A stretch of 64,000 bases of DNA from an uncultured Arachnia sp. GTDB taxonomy: Bacteria > Actinomycetota > Actinomycetes > Propionibacteriales > Propionibacteriaceae. Below the pieces are notes generated by a model. The model made no database searches, was not told where the DNA came from, and worked only from the letters and a program-made list of their open reading frames with translations. The stretch lies in the NCBI GenBank assembly GCA_947499145.1, contig CANMNB010000001.1, forward strand, positions 865 to 64,864, read 5' to 3'. The translations under genes were made by a program, and so were the position numbers. Position 1 is the first letter of the stretch; the number at the start of each line of letters is the position of its first letter. Below, piece by piece: positions 3,145-18,868 of this stretch.

Positions 3145-3307
3145 GGACGTGAACGCTGTGCAAACCGGGGAGCTTCTCCGCCCCTTTCACCGTCGATCGC
3201 GGCATGAGCGGATGCCTCCGCCCGAGGCAGGGAGACCGGCTCCCAGTCCACGGCGCAGGGCGCAGTCCAAGTGGCCCACCGGGTGGAGCGCCCATCGGAC
3301 CGCGCTG

Positions 3308-4773: not shown

Positions 4774-4908
4774 ACACGCGCCACCGCGCAGAGCACGATC
4801 CAGACGCAGCACATCCGGATTGCTCAGTACCAGGCATTGGCGCAGCTGTTGCTCAGCCAGCACGACTGCTCACTTCGCGCCAGCACATCAGAGGTTCCGG
4901 CGTCTCCT

Positions 4909-5214
4909 TCAGCTTCCAGACGCGAATGCAAACAGTAGCGACGGAACACTCAGGAGAGCCCACGTTCCCATCAGGTAGCAGATCGCGAGGGAAACCAAAG
5001 CCAGACCCCTGCCGCGATCTCCCCGGCACTTGATCTGCTGCAACGCGACGTGCCCAGCACCCACGCCAAAGACAGCGACCGAGATAAAGCCGAACCCGAA
5101 CATCCCACCGAGCGCCAGCAGCGACAGCAGGAGCGAAGCCACAGCCAACTTGTTCACCACAGGTGACGGTACCGACTCAAGGCCGATCGATTCCGTAGTC
5201 CAAGCAGTCGCCAT
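4909..5214 (-). CDS. DUF4190-like small membrane protein
   Basis: LAVASLLLSLL...GHVALQQIK.RGDRGRGLAL pattern; TAGTCT-N6-ATG leaderless start. Confidence 0.75.
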   Translation of the reverse strand: MATAWTTESIGLESVPSPVVNKLAVASLLLSLLALGGMFGFGFISVAVFGVGAGHVALQQIKCRGDRGRGLALVSLAICYLMGTWALLSVPSLLFAFASGS

Positions 5215-5527
5215 GACTGAAGACTAGGACACCAGCGGGCGACTGAGGTGAGGCCACGGAGTTTCCGCATCGGCCGGGCCCAAGGAGCCATCGACCAAGA
5301 TCCCCCGAGGGGCCATTGGCCATTGGTCTCGACAGCAATCACCATTGCGGCTTGCGGCATGTCAGCGCAAAGACGAATACGACTTCAAGCTTCGGTCGGG
5401 CAACGCTCCCGTTCGGAAGAAGGCACAGATGTGCGGTGAAGATCAGCGCCGCCTGTCATCAGAACGACTGTCAGTCGTCGCTTCGTGAGCGAGTCTCCTG
5501 GGCTGCAGCCCGGCTTGTGTCGAATGT

Positions 5528-5582
5528 TTGACACAACGCTTCTGAGCGTCTAATCTTGGCTTGTAGCAATCCTTTGATACAA
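5528..5582 (+). promoter_or_regulatory. SigA-type promoter plus palindromic GntR/YtrA operator
   Basis: TTGACA (5528-5533), 17 bp, TAATCT (5551-5556). Followed by the inverted repeat TTGTAGCAA-tcct-TTGATACAA (5561-5582, 1 mismatch). Confidence 0.8.
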
Positions 5583-5594
5583 GATCGGGGTCCC

Positions 5595-6473
5595 ATGTCT
5601 CTTTTAATAGTCTCGGCTCTCATCGGTGGTCCGCTGCTTTTGACGGTGATCGCGCTGGGGGCGCATTCGGCGGCACGCGGTGCCCCCGACACGCGCAGCG
5701 AGTGGAAGTGGGTTCGCGCGACCTGGGTTGCGGCTGCCTTCATCGGCGGCGTGGCCGCATGGCTCGTCAACGGCAGCCTTGACCTGGGTCGGGGAACGAT
5801 GCTGGCTCCTGCCATTGTCGGCCTCTTTATGGTCACCGGAGTTGGTCTCGCTGAGACTGTGGTGCGACCGCGGCGACCGACCGGTCCGCGGACTGCTTCG
5901 CTTGCTCCCCGTCGGGTGGTCAATTACCTGCCGAGGGCACTCACCACCGCGGTCACCGGGATCACGGCGGTGCACCTCGCCACGCTAGCCTTGACCACTG
6001 CGTCCGCCTCCGCCGACGACATGGGACGCGCCGGACGGCAGATCGCGGCGCGTTGTGGCAACGTCGGCAATGGAGCCGGTCCCTACCCGGGCAGCTTCTA
6101 CTCCATCCCGCTCACACTGCTGCTCCTGGGCGTCGGGCTGGCGGCCGTGGCAGCGTTGGTGGCTGTCGTGCGTCGGCCACGCGGTTTCGCGAATGACGAA
6201 GTGAGCGACGACGTGTTGCGCTTGCGGTCGATGACACGGGTGCTGGCTGCGACAGGTGCGGCTGTGGCGGCCAGCCACGTGGGCGTCGCATTCTTCGCAG
6301 GCACGGCGCTGCTCAGGATGGACTGTCAACGCGCCTGGATGGCCCCGGCGGGTTTTGTGCTCGTGGCGACCATCCCCGCGGCCCTTCTGCTGCTCGGCTG
6401 GTTTCTCGCCCGGATCGTCGGCCCCGGAGCGCTCCCCGCTCTCTCCACTGCCTACCCGGCGGAGATGCGATGA
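5595..6473 (+). CDS. Multi-pass membrane protein co-transcribed with a YtrA-type regulator
   Basis: About 7 hydrophobic segments; ATGA overlap with the GntR gene. Confidence 0.8.
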   Translation: MSLLIVSALIGGPLLLTVIALGAHSAARGAPDTRSEWKWVRATWVAAAFIGGVAAWLVNGSLDLGRGTMLAPAIVGLFMVTGVGLAETVVRPRRPTGPRTASLAPRRVVNYLPRALTTAVTGITAVHLATLALTTASASADDMGRAGRQIAARCGNVGNGAGPYPGSFYSIPLTLLLLGVGLAAVAALVAVVRRPRGFANDEVSDDVLRLRSMTRVLAATGAAVAASHVGVAFFAGTALLRMDCQRAWMAPAGFVLVATIPAALLLLGWFLARIVGPGALPALSTAYPAEMR

Positions 6474-6844
6474 GCCTCGTCCTGACCCTCGACCCCGACG
6501 ATCCGACCCCACCGTACGAGCAACTGCGGCGGCAGCTCGGCGACCTAATCGCCGCTGGACGGCTCGGCCCCGGCGACCGACTCCCCCCGCTGCGCCAGCT
6601 CGCCGGTGACCTCGGGGTCGCCGTCGGCACGGTCGCGCGCTCTTACCGTGAACTCGAGCAGGAGGGACTGCTCACGTCCCGGCGCGGCGGCGGCACCCGC
6701 GTAGCCGAGTCCGGCCGAGCCCCTGCGGTGAACCGGCAAGAAATGCTCGAGGGCATGGCTGCGGACTTCGTCGCACGGGTCCGCGGGTTGGGCTACACCG
6801 ACGACGAGACCGTCGTGGCCCTGGAGCGGCAACTCCGCTTCTAG
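6470..6844 (+). CDS. GntR family (YtrA subfamily) transcriptional regulator
   Basis: PPYEQL...GRLGPGDRLPPLRQLAGDLGVAVGTVARSYRELEQEG; 124 aa, the short YtrA size. Confidence 0.92.
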   Translation: MSLVLTLDPDDPTPPYEQLRRQLGDLIAAGRLGPGDRLPPLRQLAGDLGVAVGTVARSYRELEQEGLLTSRRGGGTRVAESGRAPAVNRQEMLEGMAADFVARVRGLGYTDDETVVALERQLRF

Positions 6845-6999
6845 CCACCAGCTTTGCCTCCGATCAAAGCGACGCTCTCGCTAGAGAATCAGGGTCTGTA
6901 TCAGTCAATTGCACGGCATGAATCAGACAGATTGCAGGCTCGCACATCGGCATGCCAGGGCGTCGCGGGACGCGATGGGCGAAGTTTCCCGCACGACCA

Positions 7000-7042
7000 T
7001 GGGCATAGGGTCGCAATGCAGGCGGGCGCTAGACACTCCCCA
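7000..7042 (+). repeat. Dispersed att-like repeat, copy 2
   Basis: TGGGCATAGGGTCGCAATGCAGGCGG followed by GCGCTAGACACTCCCCA; TGGG...CCCA ends. Confidence 0.85.
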
Positions 7043-7085
7043 CATCGGACGAATCAAACACGGCTGCGCCGCGCCTCTTGCCGAA

Positions 7086-7127
7086 CCGGGATGGGCATAG
7101 CAGGCGGATGCACAGCACTCATCCCGG
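7086..7127 (+). repeat. Dispersed att-like repeat, copy 3 (10-bp internal deletion)
   Basis: TGGGCATAG|CAGGCGG-ATGCACAGCACTC, flanked by the perfect IR CCGGGATG/CATCCCGG. Confidence 0.65.
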
Positions 7128-7190
7128 CTTCCGTCTTGGTTCAGCACTTGGCGCATCAGGACCTGCTGGGGCAGTACAGCTCGGGCGATG

Positions 7191-7817
7191 TCAATGGAGT
7201 TTCACGATTCTGTCGGCGTACTCACGCGTCCGTGTAATCCACTCCGCGTTCACCTCGTCAATCGTGCTCACCCAGTCCCGAGCAGCTGACGGTGTCTTGC
7301 CGAACTCAATGTGACGGTGGATCAGGCGCCGTATGCGGGTCTCACTGTCTACTTCTAGGAACCACGTCTCGTCCAGTTCGGCTCTGATCTGCAACCACGG
7401 CTCGTGCTGGAGAAGGAGGTAGTTGCCTTCTGTGATGAGGATTTCCACATCATGGGGGATGCGGATCGCGCCGGCGATCGGTTGCTCCAGAGTTCGTTCG
7501 AAGGCCGGCGCGTACAGGGTGCCGCCCCGCTCACTCCTGGCCCGGCGGAGGAGGTGCAGATATCCCCAGGCGTCGAAGGTTTCCGCTGCTCCCTTCCTCT
7601 CCAACAGGTGCTGGCGATCCAGTTCTTCGTCGGCTAGGTGAAAGCCATCCATGGGAACGTGCGAGACCGTCAGTCCACGATCACGCAACCTGCAGGCCAG
7701 CTCGTGCGCTAGTGTCGATTTGCCCACCCCCGGACAGCCAACAAGGCCGAGTATGTAGGGACTGGAATTGCCCATGCGATGTCTCGCCAGCAGTTCGGTC
7801 ACCAGCTCATCAGTCAT
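7191..7817 (-). CDS. Nucleoside/pantothenate-kinase-like P-loop kinase (FrcK-like)
   Basis: GLVGCPGVGKST, MDGFHL, KGAAETFD, ITEGNYLL, RLIHRHIEFGK. Confidence 0.85.
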   Translation of the reverse strand: MTDELVTELLARHRMGNSSPYILGLVGCPGVGKSTLAHELACRLRDRGLTVSHVPMDGFHLADEELDRQHLLERKGAAETFDAWGYLHLLRRARSERGGTLYAPAFERTLEQPIAGAIRIPHDVEILITEGNYLLLQHEPWLQIRAELDETWFLEVDSETRIRRLIHRHIEFGKTPSAARDWVSTIDEVNAEWITRTREYADRIVKLH

Positions 7818-7830
7818 TGGCGTTTCTCCA

Positions 7831-7885
7831 GCCACTTCGACACGTGCTTGAGACTAGGGACTCACTAAGCACGTGGCGAAGTGGC
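7831..7885. terminator. Long intergenic stem-loop between the aldolase and kinase genes
   Basis: GCCACTTCGACACGTGCTT...AAGCACGTGGCGAAGTGGC; 19-bp stem with one mismatch. Confidence 0.55.
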
Positions 7886-8007
7886 ATCGCCATTGCGACT
7901 TCCGCCTGAGAGGAGCCTGGCGTCGTCAACTATGGGGATTCGACCCCGCTGCACGACGCTTGCTCTTAGTGCGCCATCTTGCGTCGGCCACTCTTGCTGA
8001 GGCCCGG

Positions 8008-8634
8008 TCAGCCTCTGGGTGACGTAGTTCGGAGGCTCTTGATGACGAGCTCCAGTTCACCTTCCCGGGCAACGGAGGAGCCCATTGCGACTGCCGAGGC
8101 TCCGTCACTTAGGAACGAAGCCGCGTTACTGCTGCTGATTCCCCCCGTTGCGACGAAGGCGGCATCGGGGAAGGGTCCGTGCATGTGCCTTATCCACTGC
8201 GACCCAAGGGATTCTGCTGGGAAACACTTGAGCCACGTGTGGCCAGCCTTACGCGCAAGCTGGACATCGGTTGGGCTGGACACTCCTGGGAGGTAAGGGA
8301 GACCAAGGGAAGCTGCGGTGAGGGAGATCTCAGGATCAAAGCCAGGACTTACAGCGAAGCTGGCTCCGGCGTCCGCTGCTCTCCTCATGCTGTCAGGGTC
8401 AGTGATGGTTCCTACCCCGACGCTCGTTCCGCGCGCTTCGGCAAAGCTGGCCAAGGCTTCGAGTCTTTGCAGGTCTGTCTCAGATTGGTATGGGATCTCC
8501 ATGACCTTGACCCCGAGAGACCATGCCAGCTCGGCTAGCCTCAAAGTCTCATCGAAAGGGATTCCGCGCACGATCAGCATGAGGGGCATCTCGGCGAAGC
8601 GGGAGCGGAAGAACTCATCAGTGGATTGGGTCAC
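8008..8634 (-). CDS. eda: KDPG/KHG aldolase
   Basis: VGVGTI, FAVSPG, YLPGVSSPTD, LKCFPA (Schiff-base Lys), FVATGGI. GTG start after a GGAGG RBS. Confidence 0.88.
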   Translation of the reverse strand: MTQSTDEFFRSRFAEMPLMLIVRGIPFDETLRLAELAWSLGVKVMEIPYQSETDLQRLEALASFAEARGTSVGVGTITDPDSMRRAADAGASFAVSPGFDPEISLTAASLGLPYLPGVSSPTDVQLARKAGHTWLKCFPAESLGSQWIRHMHGPFPDAAFVATGGISSSNAASFLSDGASAVAMGSSVAREGELELVIKSLRTTSPRG

Positions 8635-9532
8635 CCGAATCCTCCTCATCGTAATCGCGTGTGGTCAGTAGGACTGCGGCAGCTCGGGCGTGACCTGCTT
8701 CGAGTCTGGCGCGAGATCCCTGTCCGGCGCAAAGCTCGCTTAAGAACCCCGCCGCGAAGGCGTCGCCGGCGCCGACAGCTTCGATGACTGATACATCTCT
8801 CGCAGCGGAGAAAGTTCGACCTTCCGAGGAGAACTCCCAGGCGCCGACCTCGCCGTCTTTGACGACCACCATTTCCGGTTCCGGCAATAGTTCTCTTACG
8901 TCCTTGGGGGAATCGCTGCCCCAGAGTTCCTCTGCTTCGTCGAGTCCCACGAAGACCACGTCAGCCTTATTCGCCAGGGACAGAAGTTCCGAGGCGGCCT
9001 CACCATTTTCCCATAGAGCAGCGCGGAAGTTGACGTCAAAGCTGACCAAGAAGGGTCTGTCGCGGGTCTCCAGAAGTTGGGCCAGCATCTCACGAGCTGA
9101 TCCCGAGAGTGCGGCTGTGACCCCAGACACGTGGACTACGCAGGCATTGTCCAGCTGAGGGCTTTTAAGCAGCGCAGGACCCAGCATTGAGCCGGCAGAG
9201 CCGGATCTGTAGTAGTAGACACCTACGCCGGGCTCCTTGAACATGACCCCCGTGGGCGCGGATCGGTCGACCACTGCACCGCCGACGTCCACTCCCCTGC
9301 GAGATAACACCGAAAGGATGCGGCGTCCCAGCGGATCATCCCCGACTCTGCCTAACCAGGATGACTTGCGGCCGAGTCGGGCTAGATGGCTGGCGACATT
9401 CGCCTCTGCACCCGCCACGTCTAGGAACACTTCCTCCGCACTCGCCAGTGATTCGGCGCGGGGCGGTGTGACGGAGATCATCGTCTCGCCGATCGCCACC
9501 ACAACCTGGTTGGTCCTGATGCGAAGCGTCAT
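8618..9532 (-). CDS. PfkB family sugar kinase (2-keto-3-deoxygluconate kinase-like)
   Basis: IGETM, GAEANVA, FDVNFR, GAGDAFAAG. Confidence 0.9.
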   Translation of the reverse strand: MTLRIRTNQVVVAIGETMISVTPPRAESLASAEEVFLDVAGAEANVASHLARLGRKSSWLGRVGDDPLGRRILSVLSRRGVDVGGAVVDRSAPTGVMFKEPGVGVYYYRSGSAGSMLGPALLKSPQLDNACVVHVSGVTAALSGSAREMLAQLLETRDRPFLVSFDVNFRAALWENGEAASELLSLANKADVVFVGLDEAEELWGSDSPKDVRELLPEPEMVVVKDGEVGAWEFSSEGRTFSAARDVSVIEAVGAGDAFAAGFLSELCAGQGSRARLEAGHARAAAVLLTTRDYDEEDSGDPIH

Positions 9533-9602
9533 GGCAAATCCCGGGTGCCCGTCATGTTCACCCCATCACCCGCGAGCCTCGTGGCGAGGACTTCGCCCGG
9601 TT

Positions 9603-10805
9603 CTACCAGTCATGGACGGTTCCATCCCGGAGCTCGTTGACCGGCAAGTACGAGGCAGAATACGGATGCCGCTCGGCGAGCGCGTCGTCGTAGTCGACGC
9701 CGAGGCCGGGTCGCTCTCCCGGAGTCAAGTAGCCGTCTTTCAGTTCGAAAGCAGGGTTGAACAGTTCCATCGTGCTCTCGCGGTACCCCCCGTATTCTTG
9801 GATGCCAAAGTTGTGGATGGACACGCCTAGATGGATGGCAGCCGCCATGCCCACGGGTGACACGTCTTCCGGCCCGTGCATGCCCGACCGGATGTGGAAG
9901 GTTGCAGCGAAATCCAGAGCCTTCCGCATCGCCGTCACTCCGCCGCCATGGGTTACCGACATTCTGAGGTAGTCGATGTATTGCTTCTGCAGGATCTCCT
10001 GCGCGTCCCAAAGCGTGTTGAACACCTCACCGATGGCGAGCGGTGTGGTCGATGCTGACCGTACGAGCCTGAGCGCCTCCTGGTTCTCCGCTGGCGTGAC
10101 ATCCTCAAGCCAGAAGAGTCGGTACGGTTCGAGGTCCTTGGCCAAGCGAGCCGCTTCGATAGGCGAGAGGCGATGGTGCACGTCGTGGAGCATGGGAACT
10201 TCCGCACCAAACTCGTTCCTAGCGGCCTCAAACATCGAAGGCACAAACCGCATGTAGGCCGGCGTGTCCCAAACTTCGACCAAGGGCTTCGCAAAACCGG
10301 CAGTATGGCCTGCTGCGGTACCCACCCCGTAGATGTCTGCAAGACCAGGGATGCCCACCTGCAGACGGATAGCCTTGAAGCCTTGCTCCTGCCTCCGCCG
10401 GACAGCGTCGAACAGTTCGGGGATATCACGTCCGGTGGCATGGGTGTATGTCAGCAGGTGTCGTCTTGTTCGGCCGCCGAGGAGCTGATACAACGGCACG
10501 CCGAGCGACTTGGCCTTGATGTCCCATAGGGCCATGTCGATGGAAGCGATGGCGGCCATCGTGACAGGTCCTCGTCGCCAGTACGCGCCGCGGTAGAGGT
10601 ACTGCCAGATGCGTTCGATGTTCTCTGCCTCCACCCCCTCTAGCAGTGGGGCAAGGTGGTCCTTGACGTAGGATGCGACCGCCAACTCTCGTCCGTTGAG
10701 GGTAGCGTCGCCCAAGCCCACGACCCCATCGTCGGTGGTGATGCGGGTCGTCACGAAGTTGCGGCCCGGGCAGGCCACGAGAACCTCGACGTTGCGGATT
10801 TTCAT
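9603..10805 (-). CDS. manD: D-mannonate dehydratase family enolase-superfamily enzyme (RspA/ManD)
   Basis: CPGRNFV, GDATLNGRE, GAYWRRGPV, HDVHHR, FWLED, AIGEV, NFGIQE, RDGTVHDW. Confidence 0.9.
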   Translation of the reverse strand: MKIRNVEVLVACPGRNFVTTRITTDDGVVGLGDATLNGRELAVASYVKDHLAPLLEGVEAENIERIWQYLYRGAYWRRGPVTMAAIASIDMALWDIKAKSLGVPLYQLLGGRTRRHLLTYTHATGRDIPELFDAVRRRQEQGFKAIRLQVGIPGLADIYGVGTAAGHTAGFAKPLVEVWDTPAYMRFVPSMFEAARNEFGAEVPMLHDVHHRLSPIEAARLAKDLEPYRLFWLEDVTPAENQEALRLVRSASTTPLAIGEVFNTLWDAQEILQKQYIDYLRMSVTHGGGVTAMRKALDFAATFHIRSGMHGPEDVSPVGMAAAIHLGVSIHNFGIQEYGGYRESTMELFNPAFELKDGYLTPGERPGLGVDYDDALAERHPYSASYLPVNELRDGTVHDW

Positions 10806-10839
10806 TCGAGTCCAATCAGGTGTGTGGGTGGGAGGCTTC

Positions 10840-11709
10840 TTAGCCCTTGGTTGCCCCAGCGGTCAGTCCGCCGACGACGTACCTCTGCGTGAACAGGGAG
10901 AAGACGACGATCGGCGCGCTCATGACGGCAGCAGCCGCCATCAGTCCTCCCCAGTCGATACTGGCGTAGGCCATGAACTGGTAAAGCGCTACAGGCAGGG
11001 TCATGGTTGAACTGTCGGCGAGCACCAAGGAGAAGAGGAAGTTGTTCCAACTAAAGATGACAGCGAGGATTGCCGCAGTCGCGATGCCGGGAACCGAAAG
11101 CGGCAGCGATATACGAAGGAAACATCCAAACTCTGTGAGCCCGTCGACCTGCCCTGCCTCGTCAAGTTCCTGCGGGAGGGACCTAAAGAACCCGGTCATG
11201 ATCCATGTGACTAGGGGAAGGCCGACGAACATGTGACTGGCGATCAACACCCAGAAGGTGCCTACCATGCCCGCCCTAGAGAAGAGGTAGTACCACGGCA
11301 CGAGCAGGAGGATCGCCGGCACGACACGTGCCAGCAGAATCACGCCGTTGAGTTTACCCATGCTGAACCGTGCGATTGACCAGGCGGCCGGGACCCCAAC
11401 AACCAAGGAAGCCGCAGTTGAGGCGACGGCAACAATGATTGAGTTCCTGATGAACAGCGCATAGTTGTTTGTCTCGAACACCCGCTCGTAATTCTGCAAA
11501 GTGGGATCGAAGATGAAGGTCTTCGAAACATCGCTAATTTGCACGTTGTTCTTGAGAGACGCCAAGACCATCCACACATATGGGAACAGGAAGACAAGTG
11601 CGATGATGATCAAGAGGGTGAAGCGGATGACTCGGTAAGTCTTTGCGGAGCGACTCGTCCGAGGCCCTCGGCCTCGTCCCATCTTGGACTGTTGCTGTGT
11701 CAAAGTCAT
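10840..11709 (-). CDS. Carbohydrate ABC transporter permease (MalG-like)
   Basis: EAA loop ELDEAGQVDG, WNNFLF, 6 TM segments. Confidence 0.93.
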   Translation of the reverse strand: MTLTQQQSKMGRGRGPRTSRSAKTYRVIRFTLLIIIALVFLFPYVWMVLASLKNNVQISDVSKTFIFDPTLQNYERVFETNNYALFIRNSIIVAVASTAASLVVGVPAAWSIARFSMGKLNGVILLARVVPAILLLVPWYYLFSRAGMVGTFWVLIASHMFVGLPLVTWIMTGFFRSLPQELDEAGQVDGLTEFGCFLRISLPLSVPGIATAAILAVIFSWNNFLFSLVLADSSTMTLPVALYQFMAYASIDWGGLMAAAAVMSAPIVVFSLFTQRYVVGGLTAGATKG

Positions 11710-12599
11710 TAGAACTCCTTGGTGGAACGGCGTACCGTGATCACGGCTGCGGCTAGGACGAAGACGAAGAACAAGACAAGAATCGCCGCAGCGAGTCCGT
11801 ACTCCATGTAATCGAAGCTCAAGCCGTACACGTAGACGTTCAGAGTCTCGGCCTCATTAGAAGAGCCACCGCCGGGGCCTTTGGTCGCGTAGATGAGGTC
11901 GAAGGTCTTCAGGGCATCGATACCGCGCAGGACTGCGGCCACGATGATGGTGTTCCTCAGGAGTGGAAGTGTCACGTGACGGATTCGTTGCCAGGCGTTG
12001 GCGCCGTCAATCAGGGCCGCTTCCTCAGGATCTTCCGGAAGGCCGGCCAAGCCCGCGAGCATGATCAGGACGATCAACGGAGTCCACTGCCAGACATCAA
12101 TCGCGATCAGCGTTCCAAATGCTTGGCTTGGTGAGGTTAGCCACCCTTGTGGCTCCACGCCGAGGCGGCCGAGGGCATTGTTTACGAATCCGATGTTGGG
12201 GTCGAGCATGAGGAGCCAAACTGCTCCGACAGCCACTGGACTCGTTACTAGCGGAATCATGATCACCGTTCGGATGGCCTTGTCACCCCGGAAGGGTCGG
12301 CGGAGCAGCAGCGCAATCGAGATTCCCAGGACCAGTTCCAACGAGAGTGCTCCGAGGGTGAAGAGCGCGGTCCGCCAAACCGCTGGCCAGAATCGGTTCG
12401 TGTCGGTCAGGGCAGCAGCGTAGTTCTCAAAACCGTTGTACGGTGCCGGGCCTGCTGAAGCAGGACCTGAGGTGTCGGTGAGGCTGAGATTCAGCGTGTA
12501 GAGGATGGGGAACAGTATGAGGCCTGCGATGGTAAGCAGGGCGGGCAGGACCATGCCCCAGCTGAGGAGCCGGGATCTAGTCTTTCGGCTGAGGGTCAT
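11709..12599 (-). CDS. Carbohydrate ABC transporter permease (MalF-like)
   Basis: DVWQWTP, EAALIDGANAWQ, TLPLL. Confidence 0.93.
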   Translation of the reverse strand: MTLSRKTRSRLLSWGMVLPALLTIAGLILFPILYTLNLSLTDTSGPASAGPAPYNGFENYAAALTDTNRFWPAVWRTALFTLGALSLELVLGISIALLLRRPFRGDKAIRTVIMIPLVTSPVAVGAVWLLMLDPNIGFVNNALGRLGVEPQGWLTSPSQAFGTLIAIDVWQWTPLIVLIMLAGLAGLPEDPEEAALIDGANAWQRIRHVTLPLLRNTIIVAAVLRGIDALKTFDLIYATKGPGGGSSNEAETLNVYVYGLSFDYMEYGLAAAILVLFFVFVLAAAVITVRRSTKEF

Positions 12600-12616
12600 C
12601 TTGCGCCTATCTTGGA

Positions 12617-12652
12617 GGTGAGGCCGCCCCTTGGTCAGAGGACGGCCTCACC
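12617..12652 (-). terminator. Stem-loop after the solute-binding protein gene (mRNA stabiliser or partial terminator)
   Basis: GGTGAGGCCG...CGGCCTCACC inverted repeat between the SBP and permease genes. Confidence 0.6.
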
Positions 12653-12668
12653 CGGGATCTAGTAGGGA

Positions 12669-14009
12669 CTACGACTCTGCGCCTGTCGCGGTGGCGTCCT
12701 CCTCGAGGAACTTCTCGAGTTCAGCCTGGGCTTCATCTGCCGCCTTCTGCACGTCGCCACCCTGAATCGCCACGACGAGAGGTCCGCCGACAATGTCACG
12801 GGCGCGACCAACCTGAACCACGAGAGGACGGTCATGTCCGATTCCGTTCTCGGTCGACACACGCATTGTCTCCGCGAAGTCCTCCGGGATACCGGAGAGG
12901 CTCTCAGGGTTCTCCCAGACACTGTTCCGTGCCCCGAAGACGCCCGCCTTCTGAAGGTCTAGCACCATTTCCTCACTGACTGCCCAGTCGATGAACTCCC
13001 ACGCCATGTCCGCGTTGGGGGAGTTCTTGTTGATGCCGAGGCCCCAGGAGGGAACGCTGTACGGGTGAGAACCGGCGGGTCCTGCCGGAAGTGGGGCGAC
13101 CCCGAGGTCCTCTTCTGCGATGGTGGAGGTTCCCTCCTTGATCAGTTCGGACCAGAAGACCTCCGCGTCGATGTACATTGCGAGCTTGCCCTGCTGGAAG
13201 AGCGGATTGAGCTGCTCCGTGCTCATCGATTCTACGCCAACTGGTCCGTATTCCCGCAGCAGGCGGCCATACGTCTCGTAAGCCTGGACAGCCTCAGGCG
13301 TATTGACCGAAGCCTCTCCGTCAGTGATGAAGTCACCCCCGTGGCTGTAGAGGAAGCCAGAGAACTGAGTCACGGCGGGGGAACGCATCCCCCGCATCCC
13401 GTACCCGAAGAGCCCGGAATCGGGATCATGGAGGGCAGCTGCTGCTTCCTCTAGTTCTTCCATAGTGGCAGGGGCTTCGAGGCCCGCCTCAGCGAAGAGA
13501 TCCTTGCGGTAGAACAGGACCTCTCGTTCCGTCACGATGGGAACGCCGTACAGGCCGTCCTCGTATCGGAGCGTGTTCATCATGGACTCCTGGAAGTCAT
13601 CGATGTTGAACTCGCCCTCTGCGTAGTCAGTGAGTTCCAAGAGCCATCCGTTGCGGGAGAACTGGAGTGCTTCCTGCAGCGGCCGATACATCATGACATC
13701 GAGATCATCGGCCTGCGCGTTCAGGCGAACGTTGTACATGGTCGACAACTGGTCCGCTTGGAAGGAGCTCAAGTCGACCTTGACGCCATGCTCTTCCTCA
13801 AATTCAGGGATGCGCTCCTTGATGTAGTCAGTCCAAGGGTGGTTCGCAACAGCGACTCGCAGCACCTCAGTGGTGGCAGCATTCGTCTCTTCGGACGGCG
13901 CGGCGGCTTCTTCGGCTCCGTTGTCTCCATCGCCGCACGCGGTGAGCGCCAAGGAGACGGCGCAAGCCAAACCTGCGAGCCTCCCGATCTTACTTAGGTT
14001 TCGCGACAT
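12669..14009 (-). CDS. Sugar ABC transporter substrate-binding lipoprotein
   Basis: Signal peptide with lipobox LALTAC; CUT1 SBP motifs (LFYRKDL, PATMEEL). AAGGAAGG RBS before ATG 14009. Confidence 0.92.
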   Translation of the reverse strand: MSRNLSKIGRLAGLACAVSLALTACGDGDNGAEEAAAPSEETNAATTEVLRVAVANHPWTDYIKERIPEFEEEHGVKVDLSSFQADQLSTMYNVRLNAQADDLDVMMYRPLQEALQFSRNGWLLELTDYAEGEFNIDDFQESMMNTLRYEDGLYGVPIVTEREVLFYRKDLFAEAGLEAPATMEELEEAAAALHDPDSGLFGYGMRGMRSPAVTQFSGFLYSHGGDFITDGEASVNTPEAVQAYETYGRLLREYGPVGVESMSTEQLNPLFQQGKLAMYIDAEVFWSELIKEGTSTIAEEDLGVAPLPAGPAGSHPYSVPSWGLGINKNSPNADMAWEFIDWAVSEEMVLDLQKAGVFGARNSVWENPESLSGIPEDFAETMRVSTENGIGHDRPLVVQVGRARDIVGGPLVVAIQGGDVQKAADEAQAELEKFLEEDATATGAES

Positions 14010-14069
14010 GTCGCGGCCCTTCCTTTCTAATTGGCTCAGCTTTGAGCACATTATCTTGCGGAAAAATCA

Positions 14070-15209
14070 TCACCATTCGGCGAATGAGCCGTCCCGGTGC
14101 GCATAGTAAGGAGAATCCCACTTCCCATCGAATTCTTGGTTGCGCAAGGCGTCTTCGTCCACTTCGATCCCCAACCCCGGATTGTTCGAAACTCGAATGA
14201 ATCCGTTCTCGATCTGAAATGGAGTAGTGAGCAGACCATGTCCCAGATCTCTGCCGTCTCCCATGCCAGGATGCTCCTGAACAAGCAGATTGGGGATAAC
14301 AGCACCGAGCTGGAGGCAGGACGCCAAAGACACCGGCCCAAGCGGGTTGTGGGGCGCTACCGAAACGTAATCAGCTTCTGCCATACCCGCGATTAGCCGC
14401 GTCTCGAATATACCGCCGGCGTGGCAAAGGTCAGGCTGAACGACATCGACGGCACGTTCTCTCAGCAGCTCCGCAAACCCAAACTTGGTGAATATGCGTT
14501 CACCCGAAGCAATCGGAACTGATGTTCGGCGGCGGATCTCCCCCAAGACGCTGGGACGCTCTGGAAGGCACGGTTCCTCGACAAAGGCCGGTCGATAAGG
14601 CGCGATGGCTTCGATCAGTGAGACCGCCATCGCGGGGCCCACACGGCCGTGGAAGTCGATGGCTATGTCAACCTCTGGGCCCACCGCCTCACGCAGACTC
14701 GAGAAGCGGCGAGCCTGTTCGTCCACATAGCGCTTAGTGTCGATGATCTCTACGGGGCCAGGGAGGGCCGTCTTGACCATGGTGAAGCCCGCAGCCTTGG
14801 CAGCTATTGCTGTGGAGACCAGCTCTTCAAGGCTGTCGGAGCCCCCGCCGACGTGGGGATACATCCTGATTCGGTCCCGTACACGCCCCCCAAGCAGGTC
14901 TGCGACCGAGCAGTTCAAAGCCTTCCCGCTGATGTCGTACATCGCCTGCTCGAGACCGCTGATCGCAGACACCAGCACCGGACCGCCCCGGTAGAAGGCA
15001 GAGCGGTACATGTGTTGCCAATGCTGCTGGATGCGCCGAGGATCCTTACCGACGAGGTACTCGCTCAGCTGATCGACCATCGCAGCCACCACGCGGCTTT
15101 GGCCCTCGACCACGGGCTCCCCGTACCCGGTAACACCCTTATCGGTACGGACCTCAACAATGAGCCACCGCGGCTTCACATGGAACACTTCAACTGACGT
15201 GATCTTCAT
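14070..15209 (-). CDS. dgoD: Galactonate dehydratase
   Basis: MKIT....PRW...TD.G..G.GEP..EG, FYRGGP, DFHGR, FVEEP, SGER, QPD, HNPLGP. Confidence 0.88.
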   Translation of the reverse strand: MKITSVEVFHVKPRWLIVEVRTDKGVTGYGEPVVEGQSRVVAAMVDQLSEYLVGKDPRRIQQHWQHMYRSAFYRGGPVLVSAISGLEQAMYDISGKALNCSVADLLGGRVRDRIRMYPHVGGGSDSLEELVSTAIAAKAAGFTMVKTALPGPVEIIDTKRYVDEQARRFSSLREAVGPEVDIAIDFHGRVGPAMAVSLIEAIAPYRPAFVEEPCLPERPSVLGEIRRRTSVPIASGERIFTKFGFAELLRERAVDVVQPDLCHAGGIFETRLIAGMAEADYVSVAPHNPLGPVSLASCLQLGAVIPNLLVQEHPGMGDGRDLGHGLLTTPFQIENGFIRVSNNPGLGIEVDEDALRNQEFDGKWDSPYYAHRDGSFAEW

Positions 15210-15982
15210 CGCCGCTCCTCCGCGTGGACATTGCCATCTAGCAGCTGGCCGCCCACTCCGACACTGATCTGGGACACCGCTTCCCGTATCACGGGGAGCT
15301 CGCCTTCCAATGCGTCAAGGTCGGCGAGCGCCTTCAGCGCCGTGACGGACAACGCAGCCTGCACGCGTCCTCGGGCATCGAATATGGGAAGCGAGACACA
15401 GTTCACATAGGGCTCGTGCTCGCCGTCGTCGATGGCCCAGCCTCGCACGCGCGTCTGCTCCAACTCCGCCGCGTACTCCTCGCGGGAAGTGATGGTCGTC
15501 TCGGTGTAGCGTCGAAAATCACAGCGGGAGATCAGTCGGCTGCGCTGGGCAGGGCCTGCGTAGGCAAGGATGGCCTTGGCGACACCCGAGGTATGCAGTT
15601 CGACAGGCGTTCCGATTCGGGAGTGCATTCGAAGCGCTCCAGCCCCTTCAACCTTGTCTACATACACAACTTCGTCATCAACGAGTTGCGCCAAGTGAAT
15701 CGTGTGTCCCAGTTGACGGCTAAGCGCCAAGAGATGCTCATGGGCAACCTCTCTGAGGACAATCGAGTCAAGCGCACGGTTGGCGGCGGCTATGAGGGCG
15801 AATCCTAGACCCCATTTGGAATCCTGAGTCCTGCGCGCGTACCCACGCCCTTCCAATGATTGGAGGAGGCGGAGGGCGGTCGAGCGGTGAACCTCTAGCG
15901 CCTGTGCAATCGCGCTCAGTGCCATGGGCCTCTCGGCGATGAGGTCGAGGATGGCTAGTCCCCGTTCTAGAGATTGAGACAT
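15206..15982 (-). CDS. IclR family transcriptional regulator
   Basis: MSQSLERGLAILD..., HRSTALRLL HTH, SGVAKAILA, GWAIDDGEHE. Confidence 0.93.
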   Translation of the reverse strand: MSQSLERGLAILDLIAERPMALSAIAQALEVHRSTALRLLQSLEGRGYARRTQDSKWGLGFALIAAANRALDSIVLREVAHEHLLALSRQLGHTIHLAQLVDDEVVYVDKVEGAGALRMHSRIGTPVELHTSGVAKAILAYAGPAQRSRLISRCDFRRYTETTITSREEYAAELEQTRVRGWAIDDGEHEPYVNCVSLPIFDARGRVQAALSVTALKALADLDALEGELPVIREAVSQISVGVGGQLLDGNVHAEERR

Positions 15983-16006
15983 CGTCGCCCCCTCTGTTGC
16001 CTAATT

Positions 16007-16022
16007 TGCACATCCATGTGCA
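16007..16022. promoter_or_regulatory. Palindromic candidate IclR operator
   Basis: TGCACAT-CC-ATGTGCA, 25 bp upstream of the iclR start codon. Confidence 0.6.
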
Positions 16023-16286
16023 CTTGATGCACAGCCTAAGAGGGTCCGACGTGAGCTGTCAACCACGACACCGATCGAGGCTGGTCCACGTTGGACAGCA
16101 GCAGTGCCGTCTTGTACAACATGGGAACCCGGGGCTGGCCAGACGAACTGTCGCCGATCGCACGAGGCTCCAGCGTGCGTCCGGTCGAGACCCCATGACA
16201 TTGGTTTGGCATCGATCGCCGGCTGTAGCCTCGGCCCACTCACCCGATGACACACAACCGGAGGTTGCAGGGCGCCGGGCCGAGAG

Positions 16287-16335
16287 CTGGGCATAGATTC
16301 GCGATGCAAGCGGTGCACGAACACTCTCTACCCAG
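16287..16335 (+). repeat. Dispersed att-like repeat, copy 4 (most symmetric)
   Basis: CTGGGCATAGATTCGCGATGCAAGCGGTGCACGAACACTCTCTACCCAG. The dyads CTGGG/CCCAG and TGCA/TGCA are both centred on 16311. Confidence 0.85.
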
Positions 16336-16509
16336 TCTCATAGAGCGCCCCAAGGGAGCCCGAACCTTGAGCAGTCCGAGAGCATGACACGGGCTGTGTG
16401 ACGCAAACAGCATGCTGGCTCTACCCAGGTGTACACCTAGGCTCGCCACCCAAGTGGGGTCCGTGCCGCCGAAGGAATGGCCTGCTTGGCGGACTTTGGC
16501 TAGAAGTCT

Positions 16510-16878
16510 ATGCAGGCGGGAGCCGGCACGTTGTCGACGACGCACTCGCACTCGGCAACGTCCACCATCGACCGTCTGGCGGCGCGCGTGGCTCAATCGG
16601 GAGTGATCAGCATCGACGAGGCGATGCGCCAGATCGCGCACAACATCAACTTCATCGTGCACGTGATGCTGGTGGACGACACGTGGCGCGGTGGGACGAG
16701 GCGTCGCTTCGTGAGCGAGGTCCGGCAGCTCACGGGAAGCATCGAGGACAGTCGGCCCACCACCCACCTTGTCTACCGGGCAGCGACGGCCACAGCTCCG
16801 GAACTCTTCCACCCGGAGGCTGCGATGGCCGCCGAGCTGGCTCCGTTCGATCCGGGGGTGGCGGAATGGAGACGGTGA
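16510..16878 (+). pseudogene. tadA: 3' remnant of Tad/Flp pilus assembly ATPase TadA/CpaF
   Basis: MQAGAGTLSTTHSHSA...IDRL...RFVSEV is the post-Walker-B part of CpaF. Walker A and B are absent, there is an in-frame TAG at 16501, and a GTGA overlap with tadB. Confidence 0.85.
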
Positions 16879-17726
16879 TCGCTGCCCTTCTCGGCGCCCT
16901 CGCTGCGCTCGGTTGCGTCCTCCTGGTGGCCGGCGCGCTGCGCCGCGTGGATCCTTCCCGTCCGTCTTCCACACGTCTGTGGACACCTGTGCACAACTGG
17001 TGGGGACGCCTGCCTCCACGCCGTCGCCGGGCGCTGCTCGGATCGATCACGGTGGGCTTCGTCGTGGCACTCCTGACCGGGTGGGCGGTCGCCCTGCTCG
17101 TCGTGCCCCTGGTGGTTGTCGCCGTCCCCGCCCTCCTCACGGAGCCACCCCACCGAGAGATCCACGTCTTGGCTGCGCTGGACCGTTGGGTCCGACTCCT
17201 GATGCCTTCGATCGCCACGGGGAAGTCCATCCGCGACGCCATCATCGCCACGCGCAGCCAAGCGCCGGATGCTCTGCGGCAGCCAGTGAACGCGGCGGTG
17301 GGCCGGATGGACCATGGCTGGTCGACACGCGACGCCCTGCTCGCCATGGCCGATGACCTGTCCTCCGCGGATGCCGATGCCGTCCTGGCCGCCCTCGCGA
17401 TCGCCTCCAGTCGCGGCGGTTCAGGAACCCGGGCAACGCTCCACGCCCTCGCCGAGAACACCCAGGAGCGCCTTGCCGGCCTGCGACAGATCGCGACGGA
17501 GCGCGCGAAACCCCGCGCCGTCGTCCGACAGGTGACCGCGATCACCGTCGTGATCCTGGGGGGAGCGATCCTGCTGGGGGGACAGTTCTTCGATCCGTAC
17601 CAGTCGCCCTTGGGCCAGCTCATAGCAGCGGCACTGGCCGCAGCATGGCTGGGCTCGCTGGCCATCCTCCGTCGCAGGACCACCCCGGCGCCCGCCGCAC
17701 GGTTCCTCCGCGGGACAACGGCATGA
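16875..17726 (+). CDS. tadB: Tad type II secretion system F family protein TadB
   Basis: N-terminal TM, T2SSF-like region (GKSIRDAI...ADAVLAAL...GGSG), C-terminal TMs; position after tadA. Confidence 0.85.
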   Translation: MIAALLGALAALGCVLLVAGALRRVDPSRPSSTRLWTPVHNWWGRLPPRRRRALLGSITVGFVVALLTGWAVALLVVPLVVVAVPALLTEPPHREIHVLAALDRWVRLLMPSIATGKSIRDAIIATRSQAPDALRQPVNAAVGRMDHGWSTRDALLAMADDLSSADADAVLAALAIASSRGGSGTRATLHALAENTQERLAGLRQIATERAKPRAVVRQVTAITVVILGGAILLGGQFFDPYQSPLGQLIAAALAAAWLGSLAILRRRTTPAPAARFLRGTTA

Positions 17727-18619
17727 CCACGCTCGGACTGGTGGCCCTGGTCGGCATGGGCATGGGGCTGGGTCTGGTCCTGACGGGGGTCGGGCTCTCC
17801 CGCCCCTCCCTGCGGCTGGCAGATGCCCTCGCCTCCTTGGACGGTGTGGAGTCCTCACTGGACTACCGGGACCGGGGGTCCTCCGACACGCCGCCAGGAC
17901 TCGAGGGGCTCGGCGCCGCGCTCCAGAGACGGCTTCGGCTTCCGGTCACCGAGAACCAGCAGCGTCTCCTACTGCTCCAGTCCCGCAGCGTCGGGGACTT
18001 CTTCGCCGAGAAGTTGGTGTGGACGACCGCGGGGGTGCTGATGCCGACCCTCTGGGGAGTTCTCCAGTTCATGCTCGGCCAGCCGGTCACACTCCTGCCA
18101 CTGGGCATCAGCCTCCTCGGTGGCATCACCGGCTACTTCATCGCCGACTGGCGACTGGCCCACGACGCCGGTTCCGCCCGACAGGCCGCAACGCACTCGA
18201 TCCACACGTTCTTCGACCTCGTCGCGCTCGAGCGCCTGGCGGGTGCCTCCGCGGCGCAGGCGGTGGCGTCGGCCGCCTCCGTTTCCGAGGCACCACTGTT
18301 CCGTCGCATCGCAGCCGGTCTCGAACGTGCACGGCTGGAACAGGGACCACCCTGGGACGAACTGGCACGGATCGGTCGTGATTGGCAGCTCCCGGAACTC
18401 GTCGACTTCGCCGACGTCATGCGCCTCGAGGAACAGGGGGCAGCCCTGGCCGACGCGCTGCAGGCTCGCGTGCGGGAGCTGCGGAGCAGCCACTTGTCCC
18501 GCCAGCAGGCGGAGGCCCAGGAGGCGACTGAGGGGTTGACCATCTGGATGACCGTGCCCGCGCTCCTCCTCGGTCTGGCCTTCGTCATCCCGCCCCTGCT
18601 CCGGCTGTCCAGTGGATGA
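17723..18619 (+). CDS. tadC: Tad type II secretion system F family protein TadC
   Basis: FFDLVALERLAG...ELVDFADVMRLEEQGAALADAL; C-terminal TM; ATGA overlap. Confidence 0.85.
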   Translation: MTTLGLVALVGMGMGLGLVLTGVGLSRPSLRLADALASLDGVESSLDYRDRGSSDTPPGLEGLGAALQRRLRLPVTENQQRLLLLQSRSVGDFFAEKLVWTTAGVLMPTLWGVLQFMLGQPVTLLPLGISLLGGITGYFIADWRLAHDAGSARQAATHSIHTFFDLVALERLAGASAAQAVASAASVSEAPLFRRIAAGLERARLEQGPPWDELARIGRDWQLPELVDFADVMRLEEQGAALADALQARVRELRSSHLSRQQAEAQEATEGLTIWMTVPALLLGLAFVIPPLLRLSSG

Positions 18620-18621
18620 CC

Positions 18622-18866: not shown

Positions 18867-18868
18867 CC

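What the first reader, a model, noticed from the sequence alone, without database searches (positions are those of the whole stretch)
16495..16878. tadA/cpaF is broken exactly at the repeat core: island appears to target the Tad (possible competence) pilus ATPase
Seen: TadA homology starts abruptly at ATGCAGGCGGG (16510-16520). This is identical over 11 bp to repeat copy 2 (7016-7026) and over 10 bp to copy 1. The bases to its left (TTGGCTAGAAGTCT) loosely resemble the repeat's left arm and contain an in-frame stop. Known: Flp/Tad pili mediate natural transformation in Micrococcus luteus, and mobile elements in other phyla integrate into competence genes (comM, comK). Inference: this is attR of an element family using the AMQAG codons of tadA as attB. 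Integration would switch off pilus assembly, and excision would restore it.
Basis: partly seen in the sequence, partly recalled or inferred. Interest (0 to 1): 0.85.

Follow-up and report, generated by a model that had tools for sequence, protein, structure and literature searches.

The report
Mobile island splits Tad pilus ATPase
The Tad pilus motor gene tadA is cut in two at one glycine codon by inserted mobile DNA, and three related bacteria carry serine-recombinase elements at the same spot, so this codon is a recurrent landing site whose use switches the pilus operon off.

Summary
Window 16510-16878 is the last 122 codons of tadA. The missing 5' half lies on another contig of the same genome (C22:3495-2428) and ends at the same codons (...FEA-MQAG). 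The 11-bp ATGCAGGC(A/G)GG is duplicated at both junctions. Joining the flanks gives an intact 488-aa frame with no sign of decay.

Of 68 species genomes of the genus, two more have tadA split at this codon:
- G066 holds a 40-kb prophage.
- G011 holds a 23.6-kb mobilisable element with a type I restriction system.

Each has a large serine recombinase (LSR) gene abutting the junction. Their reconstructed attP sites have inverted repeats 32 bp apart, centred on the GG of the Gly codon. An Arthrobacter genome has a 10.7-kb LSR element at the same motif of a different Tad ATPase.

In this genome the island is at least 19.8 kb, is broken by IS copies in the assembly, and has no recombinase at either assembled end. 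Its internal repeats are attP-like vestiges, and one keeps an LSR 5' stub. The nearest intact LSR is on an unlinked contig.

So site-specific integration is supported. A working on/off switch in this strain is not, and the competence role is untested.

The parts
16510..16878 (+). 3' fragment of tadA (122 codons, from the Met of the A-M-Q-A-G motif to the stop). Its stop overlaps the tadB start.
   Evidence: It is 70-81% identical to the C-termini of intact TadA in the genus. It joins in frame to the 5' half on C22.
16510..16520 (+). Common core at attR, ATGCAGGCGGG. The inferred crossover is the GG at 16519-16520, the first two bases of the Gly codon.
   Evidence: The same 11 bp, with one change (ATGCAGGCAGG), ends the 5' half at C22:2427-2417. 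The dyad centres of the reconstructed attP sites of G066 and G011 fall on this GG.
16470..16509 (+). Element-side (P) arm of attR, ...GGCGGACTTTGGCTAGAAGTCT, with the in-frame TAG at 16501-16503.
   Evidence: Relatives' tadA DNA has no homology to the left of 16510. The arm is only a loose relative of the P arm of the internal copies.
16280..16340 (+). Internal attP-like copy 3 (GCTGGGCATAGATTCGCG-ATGCAAGCGGT-GCACGAAC...), 206 bp from attR.
   Evidence: the repeat finder family D2, alignment, and nhmmer E=3e-7.
6990..7050 (+). Internal attP-like copy 2 (CCATGGGCATAGGGTCGCA-ATGCAGGCGGG-CGCTAGACAC...). Its core plus right arm match attL on C22 at 17 of 18 bases.
6951..7000 (-). Vestigial 5' end (about 17 codons, M-V-V-...-S-R-D-A-L) of a large serine recombinase gene. 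It reads leftwards out of copy 2, and the rest of the gene is deleted.
   Evidence: It is collinear with the first 48 nt of the G066 integrase: TATGCCCATG, then TCCCGCGACGCC-CTGGCATG at the same offset. Only 11 of 1500 shuffles reach the score.
7088..7110 (+). Truncated extra copy (GGGATGGGCATAG-CAGGCGGATGCAC), i.e. a P arm plus core with a deletion of about 10 bp.
   Evidence: Read directly from the sequence.
3110..3170 (+). Internal attP-like copy 1 (CATGGGCATAGGTTCGCC-GTGCAGGCGGG-GACGTGAAC...).
   Evidence: nhmmer E=4e-4.
1..16509 (.). Right-hand assembled part of the inserted island. With 864 bp more to the contig start it totals 17,373 bp. From left to right it holds: an IS3-family transposase, two unknown ORFs, copy 1, a GNAT / AAA-ABC-like ATPase / GntR module, copy 2, a sugar-acid catabolic operon with an IclR regulator, and copy 3.
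   Evidence: Pfam and NCBIfam results. Third-position GC is lower (0.70-0.84) than in flanking chromosomal genes (0.83-0.95). There is no synteny with relatives.
16866..18619 (+). tadB (16866-17726) and tadC (17645-18619). Both are intact but are now separated from the operon's upstream part (cpaB-like, tadZ and the tadA 5' half, all on contig C22).
   Evidence: T2SSF domains. Synteny with relatives continues from 16510 onward.

Best explanation
tadA, the ATPase of a Tad/Flp pilus operon, was interrupted by site-specific integration of mobile DNA carrying a large serine recombinase (LSR).

Site. The attachment site is the A-M-Q-(A/S)-G motif. The crossover is most likely at the GG that begins the Gly codon, which is the right edge of the 11-bp core ATGCAGGCGGG.

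State in this genome. The island has since decayed into a composite:
- at least 19.8 kb of accessory DNA carrying a toxin-antitoxin pair, unknown genes, a GNAT/ATPase/GntR module and a sugar-acid operon;
- IS insertions;
- three to four internal attP-like sites left from tandem or successive elements, one still attached to the first ~17 codons of a deleted LSR gene.

Consequences. The insertion removes the last 122 codons from TadA. It also cuts tadB, tadC and downstream genes off from the operon's promoter side, so this pilus system should be off.

Shown: the precise split, the core duplication, the undecayed halves, the recurrence of the site with LSR genes in relatives, and the LSR stub.
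Inferred: the GG crossover, the tandem-array history, the loss of pilus function, and that this copy is now probably immobile unless the unlinked LSR on contig C9 acts in trans.
For: 1. Both halves exist and abut the same 11 bp.
- The 5' half is at C22:3495-2428 and ends ...GEVRGAEASAMFEA-MQAG.
- attL reads GAGGCG|ATGCAGGCAGG|CGCTAGAATTG. attR reads GAAGTCT|ATGCAGGCGGG|AGCCGGC.
- Three intact relatives align to C22 up to base 2414 and to C1 from base 17374, with a 14-bp overlap in the query. Synteny is conserved on both sides.

2. The halves are undecayed. The joined flanks give one 488-aa frame. Only 3 of 195 genus-invariant residues differ, against 0-8 in intact orthologues.

3. The same codon is used elsewhere in the genus (68 species genomes searched).
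- G066 has a 40.07-kb prophage with terminase, portal, major head protein and endolysin. Its LSR starts about 25 bp after attL.
- G011 has a 23.6-kb element with a MobC-like gene and a type I R-M system. Its LSR start sits about 33 bp from the crossover at attR.

4. The reconstructed attP sites have LSR-type geometry. G066 reads GTCCATGGGTATAAC-32 bp-GTTATACCCATGGAC. G011 reads GTCGTCATGGTCATAAC-32 bp-GTTAGCACCATGGTGAC. In both, the dyad centre falls on the GG of the Gly codon.

5. The window's repeats look like vestiges of such sites.
- They share the P arm CCATGGG(C/T)ATA at the same offset from the core.
- Copy 2 keeps an LSR 5' stub.
- Copy 2's right arm equals the attL right arm at 17 of 18 bases.
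- The repeat family occurs only in island DNA.

6. The only LSR of this clade in the genome (C9:11963-10485, 492 aa) is the sister of the G066 integrase, with support 95/98.

7. The pattern extends beyond the genus. Arthrobacter sp. NPDC058130 has a Tad ATPase split by a ~10.7-kb LSR element at PF00437 position 236, the same profile position as here.
Against: - No recombinase gene lies at either assembled end of the island in this genome.
- The island is not contiguous in the assembly. C22 and C1 both begin with the same 77-bp IS end. At least two inverted IS copies and an unknown middle must therefore lie between them, and an IS-mediated inversion could even have moved the two halves far apart.
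- The right (P') arms of the internal copies show no convincing dyad symmetry. Unconstrained similarity of the copies to the G066 attP is modest (p about 0.02-0.05 by shuffling).
- The P arm at attR itself is only loosely like the other copies.
- LSRs do not normally integrate into attL or attR. The internal attP-like sites therefore need an extra assumption: cointegrate or tandem insertion, or later recombination.
Confidence: 0.82

Rival explanations
1. A working genetic switch. The island, or a sub-element of it, still excises through the two 11-bp cores. The recombinase would be the LSR on contig C9 acting in trans together with a directionality factor. Excision would restore tadA and pilus (possibly competence) function in a subpopulation, as in comK, sigK or spsM elements.
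For: - Precise excision would rebuild an in-frame, fully conserved tadA. The one core mismatch is silent (GCA/GCG).
- The halves show no decay.
- An intact LSR that is sister to a tadA-specific integrase exists in the genome.
- The G066 prophage and the G011 element look complete enough to excise.
Against: - There is no LSR in cis, and LSR genes inside the island are deleted down to a stub.
- No directionality factor was identified.
- The C9 LSR is only 41.5% identical overall to the G066 enzyme, and its own flank shows no such att site.
- The attR P arm is degenerate.
- IS copies have broken the island.
- Undecayed halves are explained equally well by a recent insertion.
Confidence: 0.1
2. 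An SCC-like or cassette-like accretion system. Integrase-less cargo modules, each ending in an attP-like site, are captured one after another at tadA by an LSR supplied in trans. The array would then be a functional design rather than wreckage.
For: - Three to four same-orientation sites separate functionally distinct modules: a module of unknown or defence-like genes, a GNAT/ATPase/GntR module, and a sugar-acid operon.
- A further copy follows an AbiEi-like gene on contig C25.
- Part of one module has a 96%-identical second copy in the genome (contig C16).
Against: - Copy 2 carries a truncated LSR gene, which points to deletion of once-autonomous elements.
- The repeat was not found in any of the other 67 genus genomes with a strict pattern.
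- No module was seen elsewhere flanked by such sites.
- The spacings of 206 bp and 76 bp between some copies look like debris.
Confidence: 0.06
3. A non-LSR mechanism. This would be either a DDE transposon or IS composite that made an 11-bp target duplication, or a tyrosine-recombinase island, with the resemblance to LSR att sites being coincidental.
For: - An 11-bp direct duplication at both ends is also what a transposon would leave.
- IS elements abound in and around the island.
- The middle of the island is unassembled and could hide another recombinase.
Against: - The duplication is imperfect.
- There are no terminal inverted repeats or transposase at the junctions.
- The tyrosine integrases of the genome lie elsewhere, one of them next to a tRNA gene on C11.
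- Independent LSR elements use the same GG in two other species of the genus, and an Arthrobacter element splits a different Tad ATPase at the same motif.
- The junction arms recur with an LSR stub.
Confidence: 0.02

Closest known systems
Listeria comK prophages (A118 / phi10403S; serine integrase). Recalled from my own knowledge, not tested here.
   Same: An LSR phage integrates inside a protein-coding gene of a DNA-uptake or pilus-related pathway. Both gene halves are preserved, and precise excision restores the frame.
   Different: The target here is the Tad pilus ATPase, not a regulator. In this genome the element is a decayed composite without an integrase in cis, and regulated excision is not shown.
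Bacillus subtilis skin (SpoIVCA, in sigK) and SPbeta (SprA, in spsM). Recalled from my own knowledge.
   Same: An LSR element splits a gene at a short common core, and the recombinase gene sits next to the att site, as in G066 and G011.
   Different: Those elements excise in a developmental programme using a known directionality factor. No such programme or factor was identified here.
Mycobacteriophage Bxb1 in groEL1 and other actinophage serine integrases such as R4 and phiC31. Homology to this group is shown; the target genes are recalled from my own knowledge.
   Same: The G066 integrase is 31-36% identical to the best-ranked actinophage serine integrases of this family, including R4 (phiC31 and Bxb1 were not among the listed hits). 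Integration into a host gene abolishes a surface or biofilm-related function. attP lies immediately upstream of int.
   Different: This is a different attB gene. I found no paper describing tadA/cpaF as an attB.
SCCmec composite islands (CcrAB/CcrC LSRs at rlmH). Recalled from my own knowledge.
   Same: Several units sit in tandem at one chromosomal site, separated by same-orientation copies of the attachment sequence, and some units lack a recombinase.
   Different: SCC inserts at the extreme 3' end of rlmH and leaves it intact, whereas here the target gene is cut. No ccr-like gene lies in the assembled array.

Membership tests
Large-serine-recombinase integrative element (phage-type serine integrase system) | The target is interrupted at a short core shared by both junctions, with both target halves retained. 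| tested here: met
   The 11-bp core (10 of 11 identical) is at C22:2427-2417 and window 16510-16520. Relatives' genes align across both halves.
Large-serine-recombinase integrative element (phage-type serine integrase system) | An LSR gene lies within the element, normally adjacent to the att site. | tested here: inconclusive
   Met in G066, G011 and the Arthrobacter element. In this genome there is none at either assembled end, only a 5' stub at copy 2 and an intact sister-clade LSR on the unlinked contig C9. The middle of the island is unassembled.
Large-serine-recombinase integrative element (phage-type serine integrase system) | attP has imperfect dyad symmetry around a central dinucleotide that is shared with attB. 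| tested here: inconclusive
   In G066 and G011 the inverted repeats of 15-17 bp lie 32 bp apart with GG at the centre. In this genome's copies the P arm and core are conserved but the P' half shows no clear symmetry.
Large-serine-recombinase integrative element (phage-type serine integrase system) | Catalysed attP x attB integration, and attL x attR excision with a directionality factor. | not testable with these tools
   This needs in vitro or in vivo recombination assays.
Gene-interrupting regulatory-switch elements (active lysogeny; skin/sigK type) | Precise excision restores an intact, functional reading frame. | tested here: met
   The joined flanks give a 488-aa frame, conserved end to end. 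Function of the restored protein was not tested.
Gene-interrupting regulatory-switch elements (active lysogeny; skin/sigK type) | The element keeps its own recombinase and excises under a defined signal. | tested here: not met
   There is no recombinase in the assembled island of this genome. Regulated excision is untestable here.
SCC-like composite island | Tandem units are separated by same-orientation copies of the attachment sequence. | tested here: met
   Copies lie at window 3117, 6998 (with a partial copy at 7088) and 16286, plus attR at 16510 and attL on C22. All are in one orientation.
SCC-like composite island | At least one unit carries the cognate LSR(s), and insertion leaves the target gene intact. 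| tested here: not met
   There is no LSR in the assembled units, and tadA is cut 122 codons before its end.
Integron cassette array | An IntI-type tyrosine recombinase with attI next to an array of attC hairpin sites. | tested here: not met
   No tyrosine recombinase lies on C1, C22 or C25. The repeats are homologous to LSR attP arms, not attC. There was no Rfam or tRNA match in window 1-20000.
DDE transposon with target-site duplication | Terminal inverted repeats and a transposase at the ends, with an exact duplication. | tested here: not met
   The junction arms are not inverted repeats of each other. The nearest genes are a RelE/Phd-like pair and an IclR regulator. The duplication has one mismatch.

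The most novel reading that the evidence does not exclude
Tad pilus loci of Actinomycetota are a preferred, conserved landing pad for one clade of large serine recombinases carried by phages, mobilisable defence islands and cargo arrays. By occupying the invariant A-(M/L)-(Q/N)-x-G codons of the ATPase, these elements reversibly switch off a pilus that may serve as a DNA-uptake machine or phage receptor. That would give the element superinfection or competition control. In this strain the array of integrase-less modules would still be movable in trans by the LSR on contig C9.
Probability: 0.15. Interest if true: 0.8.

Novelty: new member of a known kind. Interest (0 to 1): 0.6.

Why it matters
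- It identifies a specific, highly conserved codon of the Tad pilus ATPase as a recurrent attachment site. Very different mobile elements use it: a prophage, a mobilisable restriction-modification island and a catabolic or accessory island. This holds in several species, and an equivalent site is used in another family.
- It gives a concrete, testable set of attP/attB pairs and three related serine integrases for actinobacterial genetics.
- It predicts strain-level loss of piliation, and, if the Micrococcus luteus precedent applies, of natural transformation, caused by element carriage.
- It warns annotators that 'truncated cpaF/tadA' genes in Actinomycetota may be split genes rather than pseudogenes.

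Tried and rejected
1. Random deletion or pseudogene: rejected, because the 5' half is present and undecayed.
2. Assembly artefact: rejected. The junctions lie 17.4 kb and 2.4 kb inside their contigs, and the same break occurs in two other genomes.
3. The 11-mer being significant on its own: no. There are 7 copies genome-wide against about 4 expected.
4. A tyrosine integrase next to the island: none. The six Phage_integrase hits are elsewhere, and the one on C11 sits beside a tRNA gene.
5. A strict pattern for the repeat in all 68 genus genomes found only this genome, so the repeat as such is not genus-wide.
6. The 5' region of the C9 LSR gene being homologous to the reconstructed attP of this island (GGCTAG...TCTATG, GCGCT(A/G)GAAT): not significant, since 920 of 3000 shuffles match the score. 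Dropped.
7. LSR remnants beside copies 1 and 3 and on C25: none above noise.
8. DNA similarity between this island and the G066 prophage: none. With the G011 element there are only type I R-M genes resembling contig C26, at 45-60% amino-acid identity. That is a hint, not proof, that C26 belongs to the island.
9. Plasmid database search for window 1-7100: no useful match.
10. Exact-protein look-up of TadB in public assemblies: nothing.
12. A promoter or leaderless-ORF reading of the repeat (TAGGGT-like box followed by ATG): considered, not pursued, because the spacing is wrong and the att explanation accounts for it.
13. The organism's name could not be obtained, because handles are anonymous.

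Full report
**1. What is at the coordinates**

Window 16510-16878 is an ORF of 122 codons (MQAGAGTLSTTHSHSATSTIDRLAARVAQ...). Its stop overlaps the start of a T2SSF-domain gene, tadB (16866-17726), which is followed by tadC (17645-18619). Pfam's T2SSE model does not reach it.

It is nevertheless 70-81% identical to the C-terminal 113-122 residues of one protein in 65 other genomes of the genus. In 63 of these the match lies in an open frame of 470-800 aa; the other two are the split cases G066 and G011. Here the frame is 124 aa.

**2. The other half**

The window is C1:865-64864 of a 26-contig, 2.88-Mb assembly. I used the N-terminal ~360 residues of intact orthologues as tblastn queries against the whole genome. 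They find one strong match, C22:3495-2428 on the minus strand, at 69-73% identity. It ends at the last query residue (...FEA).

Read in the tadA direction, C22 gives ...GEVRGAEASAMFEA-MQAG and then ARIVFKPA-stop. The DNA is GAGGCG|ATGCAGGCAGG|CGCTAGAATTGTC. The window reads GAAGTCT|ATGCAGGCGGG|AGCCGGC. So 11 bp of tadA are present at both junctions, with one silent difference.

DNA of three relatives with intact tadA aligns to C22 up to base 2414 and to C1 from base 17374. The two alignments overlap by 14 bp in the query. The upstream genes (cpaB-like and tadZ on C22) and the downstream genes (tadB and tadC on C1) are syntenic.

Joining the flanks in a script gives one 488-aa frame that aligns end to end with 19 orthologues. 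Only 3 of 195 positions invariant in the others differ, and intact orthologues score 0-8 in the same leave-one-out test. The gene is therefore split, not deleted, and has not decayed.

**3. What lies between**

Next to attL on C22 are a RelE-like and a Phd-like gene and two unknown ORFs. After 2.4 kb the contig ends.

Next to attR the window holds, from right to left:
- repeat copy 3, 206 bp away;
- an IclR regulator and a sugar-acid operon (two enolase-family dehydratases, ABC transporter parts, a PfkB kinase, a KDPG aldolase and a nucleotide-kinase-family protein);
- copy 2;
- a GntR / unknown / AAA-ABC-like ATPase / GNAT module;
- copy 1;
- two unknown ORFs and an IS3-family transposase.

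Third-position GC is lower here than in the flanking chromosome.

C1 and C22 both start with the same 77-bp terminus of a five-copy IS. The island is therefore broken in the assembly. At least two inverted IS copies and an unknown middle must lie between the contigs. The assembled inserted DNA totals at least 19.8 kb.

There is no recombinase in it. The genome's tyrosine integrases are elsewhere, and its serine recombinases are on C9 and C3.

**4. The same codon in relatives**

Among 68 species genomes of the genus, two others have the C-terminal piece in a short frame.

*G066 (closed genome).* The 5' half ends at 2968573 and the 3' half starts at 3008648. The 40.07-kb insert is a prophage with a serine integrase (phrog_95), large terminase, portal, major head protein, a 1465-aa tape-measure-sized protein and an endolysin. 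The 504-aa LSR gene starts about 25 bp after the junction. It is 31-36% identical to the best-ranked actinophage serine integrases in the search, including R4.

*G011 (an indel-ridden assembly).* The 5' half ends at 1522479 and the 3' half starts at 1546123. The 23.6-kb insert has a MobC-like gene, type I restriction-modification genes, and an LSR at the right end whose start codon lies in the att arm.

*attP geometry.* Reconstructing attP as attR-left plus attL-right gives:
- G066: GTCCATGGGTATAAC-32 bp-GTTATACCCATGGAC
- G011: GTCGTCATGGTCATAAC-32 bp-GTTAGCACCATGGTGAC

In both, the centre of the 32 bp falls on the GG that begins the Gly codon of M-Q-(A/S)-G. That is the short identity block shared by attL and attR. 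In this genome the GG is the right edge of the 11-bp core. This geometry is that of LSR attP sites according to established knowledge of the family. The crossover itself is inferred.

**5. The internal repeats**

The repeat finder, an alignment and an nhmmer profile show four full copies of a ~60-bp unit in the whole genome. They are at window 3117, 6998 and 16286, and at C25:1380. All are in island DNA. A truncated copy lies at 7088.

The unit consists of a left arm CCATGGGCATAG(G/A)(T/G)TCGC, the core, and a right arm (C/T)GC(T/C)AGAC.... Three features tie it to LSR att sites:
- The left arm matches the G066 and G011 arm (CCATGG(G)TATAAC, CATGGTCATAAC) at the same offset from the core. Unconstrained shuffling gives only p about 0.02-0.05, so this alone is suggestive rather than conclusive.
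- Copy 2's core plus right arm equal attL at 17 of 18 bases.
- Read leftwards from copy 2, the sequence is collinear with the first 48 nt of the G066 integrase gene (ATG...TCCCGCGAC..GGCATG, the I-S-R-D catalytic-serine region). Only 11 of 1500 shuffles reach that score.

So copy 2 is an attP with the stub of a deleted LSR gene, arranged as in G011. Copies 1 and 3 show no stub. The copies are best read as junctions left by tandem or successive LSR elements that later lost most of their DNA. An SCC-like functional array is a less likely alternative.

**6. The remaining LSR**

The only homologue of the G066 integrase in this genome is C9:11963-10485 (492 aa). It is 41.5% identical overall and 54% identical in the catalytic domain to both the G066 and G011 enzymes. 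In a tree of 17 LSRs it is sister to G066, with support 95/98.

C9 is a 13-kb contig carrying transposon genes, two small resolvases, a merA-like gene and a cadD-like gene. It cannot be linked to the island, and no att-like site lies by its LSR. It may be the cognate enzyme, but that is unproven.

**7. Beyond the genus**

A scan of 185,579 species genomes with the G066 LSR returned 25 loci at 22-64% identity over the best-matching segment, about 31-41% for the near-full-length matches. Five of them have tad ATPase or tad membrane genes within 3 kb.

- Arthrobacter sp. NPDC058130: a different Tad ATPase is split by ~10.7 kb. The 5' part ends ...ALNSGLPG at PF00437 position 236, the same profile position at which this genome's C22 piece ends. 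The LSR starts ~40 bp later, and the 3' part resumes at NSGLPG....
- Nocardioides imazamoxiresistens: a Tad ATPase is split at profile position ~188 by ~49 kb, with the LSR beside the 3' half.
- Arthrobacter gyeryongensis: the LSR follows a truncated T2SSF gene.

tad loci thus look like a favoured target of this LSR clade.

**8. Function**

The insertion truncates TadA after its Walker motifs. It also separates tadB, tadC and later genes from the upstream part of the operon, so loss of this pilus is the expected outcome (inference).

The genome has three other T2SSE ATPases, including a second TadA-like one on C4 at 38% identity. Tad/Flp-dependent natural transformation is documented for Micrococcus luteus (PMC4322843). 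Whether this locus does the same is unknown.

Full-text searches found no paper describing tadA/cpaF as an attachment site. That is absence from the library searched, not proof of novelty.

**9. Verdict**

The recombinase family is identified as LSR, and the crossover is narrowed to one GG. The island in this strain is a decayed composite that is probably fixed.

This is a new member of a well-known kind: serine-integrase elements that interrupt host genes. The target is previously undescribed and recurrent. Interest is moderate to high.

No Rfam family or tRNA gene accounts for the repeats.

Noticed in passing
G093 (Nocardioides imazamoxiresistens) C1:143042-193128; locus L041: A Tad-family ATPase is split at a different place (PF00437 position ~188, near ...HPDWVAMQTR...) by ~49 kb. 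An LSR gene abuts the 3' half, and this LSR is sister to the Arthrobacter one that uses position 236.
   Followed up: partly
L036 (Arthrobacter gyeryongensis), bases 2900-3000: An LSR gene starts right after a T2SSF (tadB/tadC-type) gene that ends abruptly at ...GRKEIAMMVPL, while the neighbouring tadA is intact. The tad membrane gene may be another LSR target.
   Followed up: no
G000 contig ends (C1, C22, C10 starts; C11, C25 ends; C25, C5, C26 starts; C17, C7 ends): A five-copy IS with two distinct 77-bp termini breaks the assembly. A diverged sixth copy is inside C4 (~380797-382400). A second IS (contig C14) ends C1, C10, C26 and C9.
   Followed up: partly
G000 contig C25 (1858 bp): This small contig lies between two IS copies. 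It carries an AbiEi-like antitoxin gene (75% identical in DNA to one on C11), followed by a full att-like copy at 1380-1434 and a second P-arm-like piece (GGCATGGGTATGAAAATGCAG) at ~1470.
   Followed up: partly
G000 contig C26 (12.3 kb): It carries a type I restriction-modification system (hsdR, hsdS, hsdM and a large DUF protein) whose proteins are 45-60% identical to those in the tadA-inserted element of G011. C26 starts with the IS end that could follow C22, so it may be the missing middle of the island.
   Followed up: partly
G000 contig C9 (13.3 kb): This transposon-like contig carries TniA/TniB-like genes, two small resolvases, GntR + ABC ATPase + membrane protein genes, a merA-like oxidoreductase, cadD, and the 492-aa LSR.
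   Followed up: partly
window 4245-5359 and contig C16: An 1115-bp stretch of the GNAT/ATPase/GntR module has a second copy in the genome at 96% identity (contig C16). Part of it also matches C2:112379-112625 at 84%.
   Followed up: no
G000 C11:32841-34190: A tyrosine integrase lies next to a tRNA gene at the end of a 35-kb low-GC contig. This is probably a separate integrated element (AICE or prophage) unrelated to tadA.
   Followed up: no
window 727-2975: Two co-oriented ORFs (434 aa and 253 aa) have no match in Pfam, NCBIfam or PHROGs.
   Followed up: partly
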